Origin: Escherichia coli 042
GTDB lineage: Bacteria; Pseudomonadota; Gammaproteobacteria; Enterobacterales; Enterobacteriaceae
Length of the DNA stretch: 64,000 nt
Assembly: GCF_000027125.1 (NCBI RefSeq)
Contig: NC_017626.1
Reading direction: 5' to 3' (one strand)
Shown: piece by piece, positions 1-35,197 of the stretch
How positions within the stretch are numbered: the stretch's first letter is position 1
Layout of the letters: every line of letters starts with the position of its first letter
Position numbers and translations under genes: made by a program
The notes under the pieces: generated by a model
What the model was told of the DNA's origin: nothing
Databases searched by the model: none
Seen by the model: only the letters and a program-made list of their open reading frames with translations

Positions 1-670
1 CCAGCATGTTGATGGGAAAGCCGAGCGAAAAGAGGTTCAGCGGCGGCGCAATGCGGTTAAGCAGGCCAAAGCAGCCCTGCACAATCAGCATGATAAAAGT
101 GGTCGGCAGCGCCAGCAGCGATGCGGACGCCAGCACCCAGCTAAAGGCCAGCGCGATGGTGCGCAGGGTTTGCGGATGCAGCGCGTTGCCGATCGGCCAG
201 TAGGTGAAGCCCTTATACAAAACGCTCACCAGCAGCAGATGCCCGTCCATGGCAAAAAATAGCAGGATCGCATAGACGTTAATTAACTCCGCCAGCACGG
301 TGGTCGATGCGCCGCTGCTCGGGTCGTTCATCACCGCCATGCTCATCCCCATATTGAACGAGAGAATTTGCCCGGCGAGTTGTAGCGCGAGAAACAGAAA
401 CTGAAACATCAGCCCGAACAACATGCCCCATAAAATTTGCTCCACCGTCAGGATCAGGCTGTTGAGCGATAGCAAATCATGGGGAATGGGATGGGGGATC
501 AACGGCGTGATGATGATCGCCAGCGCCAGCGACAAAATAATCCTCACACGAACGGTCAGGGCGCTGTTATCCAGCACCGGCACATAGCGCAGAAACGCCA
601 TAATGCGCACGAAGGGGAACCACAGCCCCAGCGCCAGATCCATCAGTTGCGTAACGTCGCTTGTGCGCAT
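1..670 (-). CDS. lfiR: FliR homolog of the lateral flagellar export apparatus; partial, gene runs off the window start
   Basis: Minus-strand frame open from ATG 670-668 to position 1; hand translation starts MRTSDVTQLMDLALGLWFPFVRIMAFLRYVPVL and is hydrophobic throughout, FliR-like; lies downstream of fliP/fliQ homologs in the conserved order. Confidence 0.8.
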   Translation of the reverse strand, partial: MRTSDVTQLMDLALGLWFPFVRIMAFLRYVPVLDNSALTVRVRIILSLALAIIITPLIPHPIPHDLLSLNSLILTVEQILWGMLFGLMFQFLFLALQLAGQILSFNMGMSMAVMNDPSSGASTTVLAELINVYAILLFFAMDGHLLLVSVLYKGFTYWPIGNALHPQTLRTIALAFSWVLASASLLALPTTFIMLIVQGCFGLLNRIAPPLNLFSLGFPINML

Positions 671-671
671 C

Positions 672-944
672 TTAATGCACCAGCAGGGCGGCCTGGGTAA
701 ACAGGTGAATGCAGAGATCATGCAACTGGATAATCATCCATTTGCCGCACACGCCCAGCACCACCAGCGTGACAATCAGCCTTGGCAAAAAGCTCAGGGT
801 CTGTTCATTAATCTGCGTCACCGCCTGGAACACGCTCACCAGCAGGCCGACCAGCAGGCTTGGCACCACCAGTACCGAAACCAGCAAAATCACTACTTTA
901 ATGCCGCTGGCGACAATGTCGGCGGCTACGTCTACGGTCAACAT
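672..944 (-). CDS. lfiQ: FliQ homolog (export apparatus)
   Basis: 90-aa hydrophobic ORF of FliQ size and profile, between the fliP and fliR homologs. Confidence 0.85.
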   Translation of the reverse strand: MLTVDVAADIVASGIKVVILLVSVLVVPSLLVGLLVSVFQAVTQINEQTLSFLPRLIVTLVVLGVCGKWMIIQLHDLCIHLFTQAALLVH

Positions 945-946
945 AA

Positions 947-1699
947 TCAGCCCAGCCCCAGCCCGCGAATGCTGGTGGTGAGCGTACCGATGGTCAGCGA
1001 CCAGCCGTCGATCAGCACAAACAGCATCAGCTTAAAGGGCAGCGAAACGATCAGCGGCGACAGCATCATCATCCCCATCGCCATCAATACGCTGGCGACA
1101 ATCAGGTCGATAACCAGAAACGGGATGTAAATCATAAAGCCAATCTGGAAAGCGGTTTTCAGCTCGCTCAACACATAGGCGGGCACCACAATCGAGAGAT
1201 CCTGATCGGCAGCATTGCCCTTTGCGCCGCCGATGGTCATGATTTGCGCCATCGCTTTTTTGTCGGTCTGCGCCAGCATAAAGCGTTTCAGCGGCGTCGC
1301 GGCGGTGCTTAACGCATCGGTCAGGGTTATCTGATCGTTTTCAAACGGCACCACCGCGTGGTCGTAAATATTGAGCCAGACAGGGCGCATCACCAGCATG
1401 GTGAGGGAGAGCGCAATACCAATCAGAATGCGGTTTGGCGGCGTTTGTTGCAGCCCCAGCGCCTGGCGCAGCAGCGACAGCACGATAATAAAGCGCGTAA
1501 AGCAGGTCATCATCAGCACCATCGTCGGCAGCAAACCGACGAGGGTCATCAGAATCAGCACCTGGATTTTGACGCTGTACTCCTGAGTGTTGCCGTGGGT
1601 GACCACGTTAAGCAGCGCAATATCGCCCCCCTGGGCCAACGCCACCGGCGCAAGCGCCAGCAGCCCAAGGCCCAGCGTCAGTTGAGTGCGGCGTTTCAT
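947..1699 (-). CDS. lfiP: FliP homolog (export apparatus)
   Basis: 250-aa ORF with N-terminal signal-like segment (LALAPVALAQGG) and FliP-like membrane body; fliN-fliP-fliQ-fliR order. Confidence 0.88.
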   Translation of the reverse strand: MKRRTQLTLGLGLLALAPVALAQGGDIALLNVVTHGNTQEYSVKIQVLILMTLVGLLPTMVLMMTCFTRFIIVLSLLRQALGLQQTPPNRILIGIALSLTMLVMRPVWLNIYDHAVVPFENDQITLTDALSTAATPLKRFMLAQTDKKAMAQIMTIGGAKGNAADQDLSIVVPAYVLSELKTAFQIGFMIYIPFLVIDLIVASVLMAMGMMMLSPLIVSLPFKLMLFVLIDGWSLTIGTLTTSIRGLGLG

Positions 1700-2067
1700 G
1701 GTGCCAGGTCGTTGATATCGCGGGTGTTAAACTCCAGCACGCGCAGGCCGTACTTCTCGTTGACCACCACCACTTCTGCTTTGCCCAGCAGGATATTGTT
1801 CACTTTAATATCCAGCGGCTCCCCGGCGAGTTTATCCAGCTCAATCACCGTGTCGTCGTCGATGTTTAGCAGGTCGGCTAACATAATTTCCACCGACGAC
1901 ACTTCCAGCGTTAAGGTCACCGGAATGCGTTTCAACAGCGTCATCGAGTCGGAAAAGCGGTCTTCCAGGCGGGTGACCAGCGTTTCAGCGTCGGCGGATT
2001 TCGCGACAGGCGCAACTTCATCGGTGAGGCCAAAATCCCCGGCTAAAATATCTTCTTGCTTACTCAT
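1696..2067 (-). CDS. lfiN: FliN homolog (C-ring/switch)
   Basis: C-terminal SpoA-like segment (LDIKVNNILLGKAEVVVVNEKYGLRVLEF); start set at internal ATG 2067-2065 (MSKQEDILAG) just after the lfiM stop; track ORF extends to 2127. Confidence 0.8.
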   Translation of the reverse strand: MSKQEDILAGDFGLTDEVAPVAKSADAETLVTRLEDRFSDSMTLLKRIPVTLTLEVSSVEIMLADLLNIDDDTVIELDKLAGEPLDIKVNNILLGKAEVVVVNEKYGLRVLEFNTRDINDLAP

Positions 2068-33357: not shown

Positions 33358-33369
33358 AGTGAAGAAATC

Positions 33370-34233
33370 ATGCAAAAAATATTAGGTTTACTGGTGGTGC
33401 TCGGCTGCGTATTTGGCGGTTATTTTGAAGCGGGCGGGCAACTAGTGGCTATCTGGCAACCGGCGGAGATGATCATTATTTGGGGTGCCGGTTTCGGGGC
33501 GATGATTATTGGTAACCCGAAACATGTGCTGAAAGAGATTGCCCATCAAATTAAAGGCGTGATCAGTAAAAAACAGCTCGGGCCGGAGTTTCAGCGCCAG
33601 CTATTAATGTGTCTGTATGAGTTGCTCGAAATGGTGCAAAACGGTGGTCTGCGCATGTTGGATCAGCATATTGAGCAGCCGGAAGAGAGCACCATTTTCC
33701 AGAAATACCCGCTGGTGTTAACCCAGAAGCGGCTGGTGACCTTTATTGCCGATAACTTTCGCCTGATGGCGATGGGCAAGATTGACGCCCATGAACTGGA
33801 AGGCATTCTCGATCAGGAACTGGACACCGCGGAAGAGTCCCTGTTAACGCCGTCGCGCTCGCTGCAACGTACTGCCGAAGCGATGCCGGGATTTGGTATT
33901 TGCGCGGCGGTGCTGGGCATCATCATCACCATGCAGTCGATTGATGGATCTATCGCCCTGATTGGCCTGAAAGTGGCGGCGGCGCTGGTGGGGACGTTTT
34001 TAGGCGTCTTTATCTGCTACTGCCTGATGGACCCGCTCGCCAACGCCATGGAACAACAGGCGCGGGCGGAACATTCTTTGCTGGAGTGCGTGCGTACTGT
34101 GCTGGTGGCGCAGGCAGGCGGCAAACCGACGCTGCTGGCGGTGGACGCCGGGCGTAAGCTGCTGCATCTGGCGTCCAAACCGACCTTCGCCAACCTCGAT
34201 GCGTGGGTGAATGCGATGCTGGAGCAAGAATAA
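33370..34233 (+). CDS. lafT: MotA homolog (stator)
   Basis: 287-aa four-TM protein with MotA/TolQ/ExbB-type C-terminal helices. Confidence 0.85.
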   Translation: MQKILGLLVVLGCVFGGYFEAGGQLVAIWQPAEMIIIWGAGFGAMIIGNPKHVLKEIAHQIKGVISKKQLGPEFQRQLLMCLYELLEMVQNGGLRMLDQHIEQPEESTIFQKYPLVLTQKRLVTFIADNFRLMAMGKIDAHELEGILDQELDTAEESLLTPSRSLQRTAEAMPGFGICAAVLGIIITMQSIDGSIALIGLKVAAALVGTFLGVFICYCLMDPLANAMEQQARAEHSLLECVRTVLVAQAGGKPTLLAVDAGRKLLHLASKPTFANLDAWVNAMLEQE

Positions 34234-34235
34234 GC

Positions 34236-35159
34236 ATGAGAAAGACGGGCAACCGCCGCGAGCGTGGGGCAAAAACCACCATCGTCCGGCGGCAGATCAA
34301 AAAGAATCATGCCGGGCATCATGGCGGGGCGTGGAAGGTGGCGTTCGCCGATTTTACTTTGGCAATGATGGCGCTGTTTATGACGCTGTGGATTGTCAAC
34401 AGCGTCAGTAAATCCGAGCGTGAAAGCATTATCGCCGCGCTGCACGGGCAGTCGATTTTCAATGGCGGCGGGTTGTCGCCGTTAAATAAAATCAGCCCGT
34501 CTCATCCGCCAAAACCTGCCACCGTGGCGGCGCCGGAAGAGACGGAGAAAAAAGCGCGTGACGTCAATGAGAAAACGGCGCTGCTGAAGAAGAAATCCGC
34601 TACTGAGCTTGGCGAGCTGGCGACCAGTATCAACACCATTGCCCGTGATGCACATATGGAAGCGAATCTGGAGATGGAGATTGTTCCCCAGGGACTGCGC
34701 GTGCTGATTAAAGATGACCAGAACCGCAATATGTTTGAACGCGGCAGCGCACAGATTATGCCGTTCTTTAAAACTTTGCTGGTGGAGCTCGCGCCAGTGT
34801 TCGACTCGCTCGATAACAAAATTATTATTACCGGGCATACCGATGCGATGGCCTACAAAAACAATATCTACAACAACTGGAACCTTTCGGGCGATCGCGC
34901 GCTTTCGGCTCGTCGGGTGCTGGAAGAGGCCGGAATGCCGGAAGATAAAGTGATGCAGGTGAGCGCGATGGCGGACCAGATGCTGCTGGACGCGAAAAAT
35001 CCGCAAAGCGCGGGCAACCGACGCATTGAGATTATGGTGCTGACCAAAAGTGCGTCCGATACGCTGTATCAATACTTTGGTCAGCATGGGGATAAAGTGG
35101 TGCAGCCGCTGGTGCAAAAGCTGGATAAGCAGCAGGTGCATTCGCAGCGAACGCGCTAG
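34236..35159 (+). CDS. lafU: MotB homolog (stator, OmpA-like peptidoglycan-binding domain)
   Basis: N-terminal TM helix (FADFTLAMMALFMTLWIV) and OmpA-like C-terminus (NWNLSGDRALSARRVL); start at ATG 34236. Confidence 0.85.
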   Translation: MRKTGNRRERGAKTTIVRRQIKKNHAGHHGGAWKVAFADFTLAMMALFMTLWIVNSVSKSERESIIAALHGQSIFNGGGLSPLNKISPSHPPKPATVAAPEETEKKARDVNEKTALLKKKSATELGELATSINTIARDAHMEANLEMEIVPQGLRVLIKDDQNRNMFERGSAQIMPFFKTLLVELAPVFDSLDNKIIITGHTDAMAYKNNIYNNWNLSGDRALSARRVLEEAGMPEDKVMQVSAMADQMLLDAKNPQSAGNRRIEIMVLTKSASDTLYQYFGQHGDKVVQPLVQKLDKQQVHSQRTR

Positions 35160-35197
35160 ATGCTGAATCTTTACGCATTTCTCAAACCCTGAAATCA

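What the first reader, a model, noticed from the sequence alone, without database searches (positions are those of the whole stretch)
1..35160. Near-complete lateral flagellar (Flag-2-type) locus, about 35 kb, upstream of dinB
About 40 co-linear genes cover export apparatus, C-ring, rod, hook, rings, hook-associated proteins, flagellin, cap, chaperones, its own sigma-28 and anti-sigma factor, a sigma-54 activator and a MotAB stator. The order matches the Flag-2 locus described in enteroaggregative E. coli 042 (Ren et al. 2005). The window opens inside lfiR, so the export-gate genes (lfhB/lfhA) would lie upstream.
Basis: partly seen in the sequence, partly recalled or inferred. Interest (0 to 1): 0.6.

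Follow-up and report, generated by a model that had tools for sequence, protein, structure and literature searches.

The report
Known E. coli Flag-2 flagellar locus
This is the already-described second ("lateral-type", Flag-2) flagellar gene cluster that about a fifth of E. coli strains carry next to dinB, here in the 042-type version whose rod gene lfgC is broken by a 2-base insertion, so it is ordinary and probably non-functional.

Summary
Window 1-35159 is one contiguous flagellar cluster of 43 genes. It starts inside lfiR and ends at lafU, 70 bp before dinB. Gene order is lfiRQPNM | lafK-lfiEFGHIJ | cargo (tagD-like, GT2, lafV) | lfgNMA | lfgB-L | lafW, a toxin-antitoxin pair, lafZ | lafA-lafBCDEFSTU. 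This is the published Flag-2 architecture (Ren 2005; De Maayer 2020).

About 1000-1200 of 5426 complete E. coli genomes hold the same locus at 96-98% identity. HMMs name LafA and LafU as the lateral-flagellar forms, and flagellar models outscore injectisome models throughout.

A GC insertion at 16015-16016 frameshifts lfgC, the proximal rod gene, and leaves a 21-aa product. No other gene is broken. None of 1100 complete genomes shares the insertion, but an independent NCBI assembly is identical across it. The frameshift and the lafW-lafZ toxin-antitoxin pair are the published features of strain 042, the likely source lineage.

Sigma-54 promoter motifs lie upstream of lfgB, lafB and lafV.

Verdict: already known, interpretation supported, low interest.

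The parts
1..670 (-). lfiR (FliR export-gate subunit), 3' end cut by the window edge (residues 1-223 of 260)
   Evidence: 100% to ESC818 FliR 1-223; TIGR01400 fliR
672..944 (-). lfiQ (FliQ)
947..1699 (-). lfiP (FliP). It overlaps lfiN, so there is no room for a fliO gene.
   Evidence: TIGR01103 245 bits, cutoff 217
1696..2067 (-). lfiN (FliN-like C-ring)
2060..2911 (-). lfiM (divergent FliM-like switch protein without the N-terminal CheY-binding motif)
   Evidence: (only 28.7 bits to FliM)
3299..4279 (+). lafK, a sigma-54 enhancer-binding protein with AAA+ and HTH domains only and no receiver domain
   Evidence: aligns to positions ~120-445 of FlbD/NtrC-type models
4294..9755 (+). lfiE, lfiF, lfiG, lfiH, lfiI, lfiJ (FliE, MS ring, FliG, FliH, export ATPase, FliJ)
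   Evidence: FliI PRK07196 769 bits, cutoff 715
9758..10162 (+). VR1 cargo: TagD-like glycerol-3-phosphate cytidylyltransferase (RefSeq name 'FAD synthase family')
   Evidence: TIGR01518 113.7 bits, below cutoff 165; PMC6993521
10306..12777 (-). VR1 cargo: 823-aa glycosyltransferase with an N-terminal GT2 domain and a weak C-terminal CDP-glycerol glycerophosphotransferase-like stretch
12956..13885 (-). VR1 cargo: lafV, a FliB-like flagellin lysine-N-methylase
   Evidence: NF038110 44 bits, below cutoff 85
13920..13935 (-). sigma-54 promoter-like site CGGCACGCTTATTGCA, 35 nt upstream of lafV
14013..15550 (-). lfgN, lfgM (anti-sigma-28), lfgA (P-ring chaperone)
15580..15595 (+). sigma-54 promoter-like site TGGCACAGCGATTGCT upstream of lfgB
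   Evidence: reported for PCN033 in PMC4578781
15632..15967 (+). lfgB (rod)
15970..16403 (+). lfgC pseudogene. A GC insertion at 16015-16016 shifts the frame and leaves a 21-aa product MSFTDIYQISGSAMTARKRYV*.
16403..24816 (+). lfgD, E, F, G, H, I, J, K, L (hook cap, hook, rods, L ring, P ring, rod-binding FlgJ, HAP1, HAP3). Starts are at 16403, 17131, 18333, 19249, 20241, 20921, 22021, 22496 and 23887.
24833..25810 (+). lafW (Flag-2-specific, no recognisable domain)
25883..26536 (+). VR2 cargo: Gp49/HigB-like toxin (25883-26227) and XRE-HTH antitoxin (26237-26536)
   Evidence: PMC3032704
26594..27436 (-). lafZ (CadC/ToxR-like winged-helix regulator)
27922..28836 (+). lafA, lateral flagellin
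   Evidence: NF033376 lat_flg_LafA_1 667 bits, cutoff 440
28836..29048 (+). 70-codon ORF annotated as hypothetical. It contains the lafB sigma-54 site.
28994..29009 (+). sigma-54 promoter-like site TGGCACGCCTTTTGCC upstream of lafB
   Evidence: PMC4578781
29041..33357 (+). lafB (FliD cap), lafC (FliS), lafD, lafE (FliK-like), lafF (FliL), lafS (sigma-28)
33370..35159 (+). lafT (MotA) and lafU (MotB-like) stator. The K-12-type deletion scar endpoint maps to about 34388-34391, inside lafU.
35230..36285 (+). dinB (flanking core gene)

Best explanation
The region is the chromosomal Flag-2 locus of Escherichia coli. Flag-2 is a self-contained second flagellar system of the lateral type that sits at the lfhA...lafU/dinB site. 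By analogy with the Vibrio, Aeromonas and Plesiomonas lateral systems, it would work as follows. LafK, a sigma-54 activator without a receiver domain, switches on sigma-54 promoters in front of lfgB (rod, hook and rings) and lafB (cap, chaperones, hook-length control, LafS and the stator). A third site in front of lafV, the flagellin methylase, probably belongs to the same set. LafS (sigma-28) then drives lafA once the anti-sigma factor LfgM has been exported through a finished hook-basal body. LafT/LafU provide the stator, and the VR1 genes would methylate and glycosylate the flagellin. In this copy a 2-bp GC insertion truncates the proximal rod protein LfgC after 21 residues. The rod should therefore not assemble, LfgM should stay in the cell, and no filament should be made, so the system is most likely a very recent pseudo-locus. 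The allele is that of the 042 lineage. Shown here: gene content and order, intactness of all other genes, the frameshift, the sigma-54 motifs, the chromosomal site and the population frequency. Inferred: the regulatory cascade and the loss of function.
For: Synteny and 96-98% identity to about 1000-1200 complete E. coli genomes annotated with lafA, lafU, fliD and the rest. All ESC818 proteins map full-length without frame breaks except FlgC, which splits into two frames. The 2-bp insertion is visible in the alignment and the truncated product. Lateral-specific HMMs pass their curated cutoffs (LafA, LafU). LafK has the sigma-54 AAA+ core. Three sigma-54 motifs with at most one mismatch lie in the correct orientation just upstream of lfgB, lafB and lafV, and all three are conserved in ESC818. 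The window holds 4 such sites against 1.27 expected by chance. Flag-2-negative genomes begin matching inside lafU, next to an FlhA remnant. The literature reports an lfgC frameshift and a lafW-lafZ toxin-antitoxin pair in 042 (PMC2808357; PMC3032704; PMC4637896) and describes the cluster 1-3 plus VR1/VR2 architecture (PMC6993521). An independent NCBI assembly (GCA_045004535.1) is 100% identical over 3 kb including the insertion, so the insertion is not a one-off sequencing error.
Against: No expression or motility data can be obtained here, and no E. coli Flag-2 has been shown to make filaments even where lfgC is intact (EC958; PMC4637896). The sigma-54 motif count for the whole window is only modestly above chance (6 of 100 shuffles reach 4), so the argument rests on position and conservation. 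No convincing sigma-28 promoter was found with the enteric consensus. The assignment to strain 042 is indirect: its accession is not in the searchable collection and the Ren 2005 text was not available.
Confidence: 0.93

Rival explanations
1. The locus is a working lateral flagellar system. The lfgC break would be bypassed by reversion through slippage in the GCGCGC tract, by a restart, or by complementation from the Flag-1 FlgC.
For: All other 41 genes are intact, including regulators and sigma-54 sites, so decay has not progressed. The insertion turns GCGC into GCGCGC, a short dinucleotide run that could in principle slip back.
Against: None of 1100 complete genomes with the locus shows the +2 state, so the site does not switch often. 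The only downstream restart (GTG at 16113, 96 aa) would lack the N-terminal rod segment. The literature reports a negative swarming assay for 042 (PMC3032704).
Confidence: 0.04
2. The cluster is kept for a non-motility role, such as secretion of cargo proteins or adhesion, which does not need a complete rod.
For: De Maayer et al. speculate on a secretion role for Flag-2 (PMC6993521). The export gate, ATPase, MS ring and C-ring genes are intact.
Against: The cargo here is flagellin-modification enzymes and a toxin-antitoxin pair, not effectors. Without a rod, export would end in the periplasm. There is no supporting experiment in E. coli.
Confidence: 0.03
3. The genes belong to the primary peritrichous flagellum (Flag-1) or to a non-flagellar type III secretion system.
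For: There is shared ancestry: the Sct models give secondary hits for FliP, FliQ, FliR and FliI.
Against: Flagellar models always score higher. Rod, hook, L and P rings, flagellin, cap and stator genes are present. LafA and LafU match the lateral-specific models. All genes sit in one cluster with a sigma-54 activator and no flhDC. About 80% of E. coli strains lack the locus yet still have Flag-1.
Confidence: 0.005

Closest known systems
Flag-2 locus of enteroaggregative E. coli 042 (Ren, Beatson, Parkhill & Pallen 2005, J Bacteriol 187:1430)
   Same: Same gene order, same chromosomal site next to dinB, same lfgC frameshift, and the same toxin-antitoxin pair between lafW and lafZ (as these features are described in PMC2808357, PMC3032704 and PMC4637896).
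   Different: No difference was detected. Sequence identity with the 042 record could not be checked directly because the record is not in the collection.
Flag-2 loci of other E. coli strains (ESC818, EC958, W, PCN033)
   Same: Co-linear, 96-98% nucleotide identity, and the same three sigma-54 sites.
   Different: Those strains have an intact lfgC. According to the literature, some lack the toxin-antitoxin pair (W, Crooks and EC958). Identity to ESC818 is mosaic: 100% blocks alternate with 94-97% blocks.
Lateral flagellar (laf) systems of Vibrio parahaemolyticus, Aeromonas hydrophila and Plesiomonas shigelloides
   Same: A second, self-contained flagellar gene set with a LafK/sigma-54 then LafS/sigma-28 hierarchy, a short LafA flagellin and a LafT/LafU stator. 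The naming and logic are taken from those systems (own knowledge, plus PMC3032704).
   Different: LafA scores below cutoff on the second lateral flagellin model (NF038071, 280 bits against a cutoff of 365). The literature reports that motY and maf-5 are absent from the W, Crooks and EC958 loci, and I found neither in this window's gene list without searching for them specifically. Function is proven in those genera but not in E. coli.
Primary peritrichous flagellum of E. coli (Flag-1)
   Same: Homologous parts throughout (flg, fli, flh, mot).
   Different: Flag-1 is dispersed in several regulons under FlhDC, whereas this locus is one cluster under a sigma-54 activator. Here there is no FliO. 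LfgJ is 99 aa with only the rod-binding domain. LfiM lacks the CheY-binding N-terminus.

Membership tests
Enterobacterial Flag-2 locus | One contiguous cluster ordered lfhAB-lfiRQPNM-lafK-lfiEFGHIJ / lfgNMABCDEFGHIJKL / lafWZABCDEFSTU | tested here: met
   against the architecture in PMC6993521. lfhA and lfhB fall outside the window but lie next to lfiR in the co-linear strain ESC818.
Enterobacterial Flag-2 locus | Chromosomal site: right end at lafU-dinB, the site that carries the lfhA'-'lafU deletion scar in K-12-like strains | tested here: met
   Flag-2-negative genomes match from window ~34388 (inside lafU) onward, with an FlhA remnant adjacent.
Enterobacterial Flag-2 locus | Lateral-type flagellin LafA and stator protein LafU | tested here: met
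   NF033376 667 bits (cutoff 440) and NF005273 578 bits (cutoff 383).
Enterobacterial Flag-2 locus | LafK sigma-54 activator with sigma-54 promoters upstream of lfgB and lafB | tested here: met
   the same sites are reported in PMC4578781.
Enterobacterial Flag-2 locus | Variable cargo regions VR1 (lfiJ-lfgN) and VR2 (lafW-lafZ) | tested here: met
   VR1 holds the TagD-like gene, the GT2 gene and lafV. VR2 holds the Gp49/HigB-like toxin and the HTH antitoxin (PMC6993521).
Enterobacterial Flag-2 locus | Full complement of 39 intact core genes | tested here: not met
   lfgC is frameshifted. lfhA, lfhB and the end of lfiR are not in the window.
Functional lateral flagella (swarming organelle) | All rod, hook and filament genes intact | tested here: not met
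   The lfgC product is truncated to 21 aa.
Functional lateral flagella (swarming organelle) | Expression of LafA, visible lateral filaments, surface-induced motility | not testable with these tools
   The literature reports negative results for 042 and EC958.
Primary flagellum Flag-1 | FlhDC-controlled dispersed regulons with FliC flagellin, FliO and a two-domain FlgJ | tested here: not met
   The locus is a single cluster with LafK. There is no fliO between lfiN and lfiP. LfgJ matches only model positions 20-91 of 294. LafA scores 140 bits on the FliC/FljB model against 667 on the LafA model.
Non-flagellar type III secretion system | Sct-type models score best; secretin, needle and translocon present instead of rod, hook, rings, flagellin and stator | tested here: not met
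   Flagellar equivalog models outscore Sct models for FliP, FliQ, FliR, FliI, FliF and FliN. Flagellum-only parts are present.

The most novel reading that the evidence does not exclude
The GCGC-to-GCGCGC change in lfgC could be a reversible slipped-strand switch that lets the 042 lineage turn its second flagellar system off and back on. In the same reading, the conserved sigma-54 site in front of lafV would place flagellin methylation and glycosylation genes in the LafK class-2 regulon. Flag-2 would then be a conditionally used organelle and not a decaying relic.
Probability: 0.03. Interest if true: 0.4.

Novelty: already known. Interest (0 to 1): 0.1.

Why it matters
It matters little as a discovery. 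The locus, its order, its distribution (~20% of E. coli), the K-12 deletion scar and the 042 lfgC frameshift were all published between 2005 and 2020. The check is useful as quality control. It shows that the first-stage reader can correctly recognise a 35-kb multi-operon system from raw sequence. It also shows what such a reading misses: a 2-bp frameshift that decides whether the machine can work. The biological role of Flag-2 in E. coli remains open, but this window adds no new handle on that question.

Tried and rejected
1. Sigma-28 promoters. I scanned for the enteric consensus TAAAGTTT-N10-12-GCCGATAA. The best sites, upstream of lfgM (14771-14798, 12/16) and lafA (27850-27876, 11/16), are no better than dozens of intragenic matches, so I make no claim about class-3 promoters.

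2. Sigma-54 sites for lfiM, lafK and lfiE. None with 9 or more of 12 matching positions lies in the 2912-3298 gap, so the promoters of cluster 1 remain unassigned.

3. Direct comparison with strain 042. NC_017626 is not in the E. coli collection and Ren et al. 2005 (PMC545627) is not held. The 042 assignment therefore rests on secondary descriptions.

4. Whether the frameshift is a sequencing error. I rejected this because GCA_045004535.1 carries the identical allele.

5. Phase variation at the GC tract. None of 1100 genomes shares the +2 allele, which argues against frequent switching.

6. The RefSeq label 'FlhF' for LafW. Neither NCBIfam nor Pfam supports it.

7. Cross-genus scans. I did not run the costly whole-collection scans for Vibrio, Yersinia or Citrobacter loci, because that comparison is already published for 592 loci (PMC6993521) and would not change the verdict.
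Full report
OBSERVATION

The ORF map shows a dense run of genes from the window start to 35159. Megablast of 1-25000 and 25001-40000 against 5426 complete E. coli genomes found the region at >=80% coverage in 986 and 1210 genomes respectively. The best identities were 98.2% and 98.8%, and the annotations under the matches were flagellar (FliF, FlgK, FliI, FlgE, FliD, lafU) followed by dinB.

I took the RefSeq annotation of a co-linear strain, ESC818 (locus L001), and mapped its 46 proteins onto the window with tblastn. Every protein maps full-length in one frame at 92.6-100% identity, with two exceptions. 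FliR is cut by the window edge (residues 1-223 of 260 map to 670-2), so the window does open inside lfiR. FlgC splits into two frames.

lafU ends at 35159 and dinB starts at 35230. The stated coordinates, the gene count (43 by my count) and the flank are therefore correct.

WHAT IT IS

Independent HMM scans (NCBIfam) assign every core gene.

- Export and basal-body genes: FliR, FliQ, FliP, FliN, a divergent FliM, FliE, FliF, FliG, FliH, FliI (PRK07196, 769 bits, cutoff 715) and FliJ.
- Rod, hook and ring genes: FlgM, FlgA, FlgB, FlgC, FlgD, FlgE, FlgF, FlgG, FlgH, FlgI, a short rod-binding FlgJ, FlgK and FlgL. FlgN got no NCBIfam hit and is assigned from 97.9% identity to the ESC818 FlgN.
- Filament, chaperone and regulator genes: FliD, FliS, a FliK/YscP-like hook-length protein (only a below-cutoff 34.9-bit YscP-domain hit; named from the ESC818 annotation), FliL and a FliA/WhiG sigma factor (PRK12427, 445 bits, cutoff 339).
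- Stator: MotA (376 bits, cutoff 304).

Two models are specific to lateral systems, and both pass their curated cutoffs. These are lat_flg_LafA_1 (667 bits, cutoff 440) for the flagellin at 27922-28836 and LafU (578 bits, cutoff 383) for 34236-35159. Where injectisome (Sct) models hit, they score below the flagellar ones.

The order is lfiRQPNM (minus strand), lafK-lfiEFGHIJ, a variable region, lfgNMA (minus strand), lfgBCDEFGHIJKL, lafW, a second variable region, lafZ (minus strand), lafA, then lafBCDEFSTU. This is exactly the three-cluster architecture with VR1 and VR2 described for 592 enterobacterial Flag-2 loci, using strain 042 as the reference (PMC6993521).

CHROMOSOMAL SITE AND FREQUENCY

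With lafT-lafU-dinB as the query, Flag-2-negative genomes start matching at query position 1019-1022. That is window ~34388-34391, inside lafU, and an FlhA remnant lies adjacent. This is the known lfhA'-'lafU (fhiA-mbhA) deletion scar (PMC6993521; PMC3032704).

A 61-nt lfgC probe hits 1100 of 5426 genomes, or 20%. This matches the published figure of about 20% (PMC4578781).

No ORF of the expected 143 codons exists for lfgC. Alignment to ESC818 shows a 2-bp insertion at 16015-16016: GACGGCGCGCAAACG in the window against GACG--GCGCAAACG in ESC818. Translation from the lfgC ATG at 15970 stops after 21 residues.

A whole-locus comparison found this to be the only indel in a coding region that is not a multiple of three. 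None of the 1100 complete genomes shares it; the best matches are 59/61.

The insertion is real and not a read error. An exact-protein look-up of the window's LfgE found an independent NCBI assembly (GCA_045004535.1, a 332-kb contig) in which no lfgC gene is called. That assembly is 100% identical to window 14631-17630, including the insertion. Nine similar places were not displayed. Other assemblies with the same LfgE protein have a wild-type lfgC (L002).

The literature gives a frameshift in lfgC and a two-gene toxin-antitoxin system between lafW and lafZ as the features of the 042 locus. Both are present here. The toxin at 25883-26227 is Gp49/HigB-like (PF05973, E = 1e-20), and an XRE-HTH partner lies at 26237-26536. 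The 042 accession is absent from the searchable collection, which explains why no 100% hit appeared. I therefore consider the window to be 042 or a very close relative. This is an inference, not a direct match.

HOW IT WOULD WORK

LafK (326 aa) aligns only to the AAA+ sigma-54-interaction and HTH parts of NtrC/FlbD-type activators (residues 4-324 against model positions 120-445). It has no receiver domain.

The motif TGGCACG-N4-TTGCW, with at most one mismatch, occurs four times in the window against 1.27 expected by chance. Three of the four lie in the locus, each on the coding strand shortly upstream of an operon start:

- 15580-15595, before lfgB
- 28994-29009, before lafB
- 13920-13935 on the minus strand, before lafV

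All three are conserved in ESC818, even where the flanking sequence has diverged to about 94%. The lfgB and lafB sites were reported for PCN033. I did not find the lafV site mentioned in the papers I read.

Because lafS lies in the lafB operon, the inferred cascade is LafK/sigma-54, then the hook-basal body genes plus LafS, then lafA. LfgM would hold LafS in check until the hook-basal body is complete. This follows established flagellar and Vibrio lateral-flagellar knowledge and is inference here.

Without LfgC the proximal rod cannot form, so the cascade should arrest before filament synthesis. The literature reports a negative swarming assay for 042. Even the lfgC-intact EC958 locus gave no LafA under laboratory conditions. 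All other genes are intact, which indicates that the lesion is recent.

CARGO

VR1 encodes three genes:

- a TagD-like glycerol-3-phosphate cytidylyltransferase (113.7 bits, below the equivalog cutoff);
- an 823-aa GT2 glycosyltransferase with a weak C-terminal match to CDP-glycerol glycerophosphotransferases (E = 0.004);
- a FliB-like lysine methylase, LafV.

This fits the proposal that Flag-2 flagellin is methylated and carries a glycerol-phosphate-containing glycan. That proposal is untested.

COMPARISON, NOVELTY AND SCORE

The closest known system is the 042 Flag-2 locus itself, and I detected no difference from its published description. Compared with other E. coli Flag-2 loci, this one differs by the lfgC lesion and by a mosaic of 100%-identical and 94-97%-identical blocks, which suggests recombination.

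It fails only the 'all 39 core genes intact' and 'functional organelle' criteria. It meets all the structural criteria for Flag-2 membership.

The finding is correct but already known. Interest is 0.1.

Noticed in passing
window 13920-13935 (-): A conserved sigma-54-type site (CGGCACGCTTATTGCA) lies 35 nt upstream of lafV, the flagellin lysine methylase. This suggests the flagellin-modification genes belong to the LafK regulon. The papers I read mention only the lfgB and lafB sites.
   Followed up: partly
window 24833-25810: RefSeq labels the LafW orthologue 'flagellar biosynthesis protein FlhF', but it has no NCBIfam hit and no significant Pfam domain (no SRP-GTPase domain). The name looks like an annotation error, and the function of LafW is unknown.
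   Followed up: partly
window 2060-2911 (-): LfiM matches the FliM model only weakly (28.7 bits, C-terminal part). Its N-terminus (MLKYSKTPGIFKLEG...) lacks the LSQxEIDALL CheY-P-binding motif of FliM, so this motor may not be under chemotactic switching.
   Followed up: no
window 22021-22320 and 947-2067: LfgJ is only 99 aa: it has the rod-binding domain and no muramidase domain. No fliO gene exists between lfiN and lfiP, which overlap.
   Followed up: no
window 3059-3167, 19079-19215, 22333-22424: REP/BIME palindromic elements fill the lfiM-lafK, lfgF-lfgG and lfgJ-lfgK gaps. One scores as Rfam naRNA4 (19083-19159, 78 bits). They explain the median of 33 megablast places per genome.
   Followed up: partly
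window 12811-12938 and 20047-20174: A second family of G+C-rich palindromic repeats (CCCTCTCCC...GGGAGAGGG, boxC-like) occurs both in the GT-lafV gap and in the lfgG-lfgH gap.
   Followed up: no
window 28836-29048: A 70-codon ORF between lafA and lafB is annotated as hypothetical in RefSeq and has no family hit. It contains the lafB sigma-54 site and overlaps the lafB start, so it may not be a real gene.
   Followed up: no
window 1-36000 vs L001: Identity to strain ESC818 is mosaic. It is 100% over 1-5000, 19001-30000 and beyond 36000, but 94-97% over 5001-19000 and 30001-35500. This indicates recombination within the locus.
   Followed up: partly
window 48148-54617: Downstream of tRNA-Thr(CGT) (48148-48223) lies a low-G+C defence islet. 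It holds a 1069-aa reverse transcriptase-nitrilase (PADLOC RT_UG5-nitrilase/DRT, 1034 bits; 49403-52612, minus strand) and an AbiEi/AbiEii pair (52907-53710 and 53631-54617). Only 258 of 5426 genomes cover >=80% of 40001-64000.
   Followed up: partly
window 37672-39434: An rtcB-family RNA ligase and peptide chain release factor H (prfH) form an apparently intact pair downstream of dinB-yafNOP.
   Followed up: no
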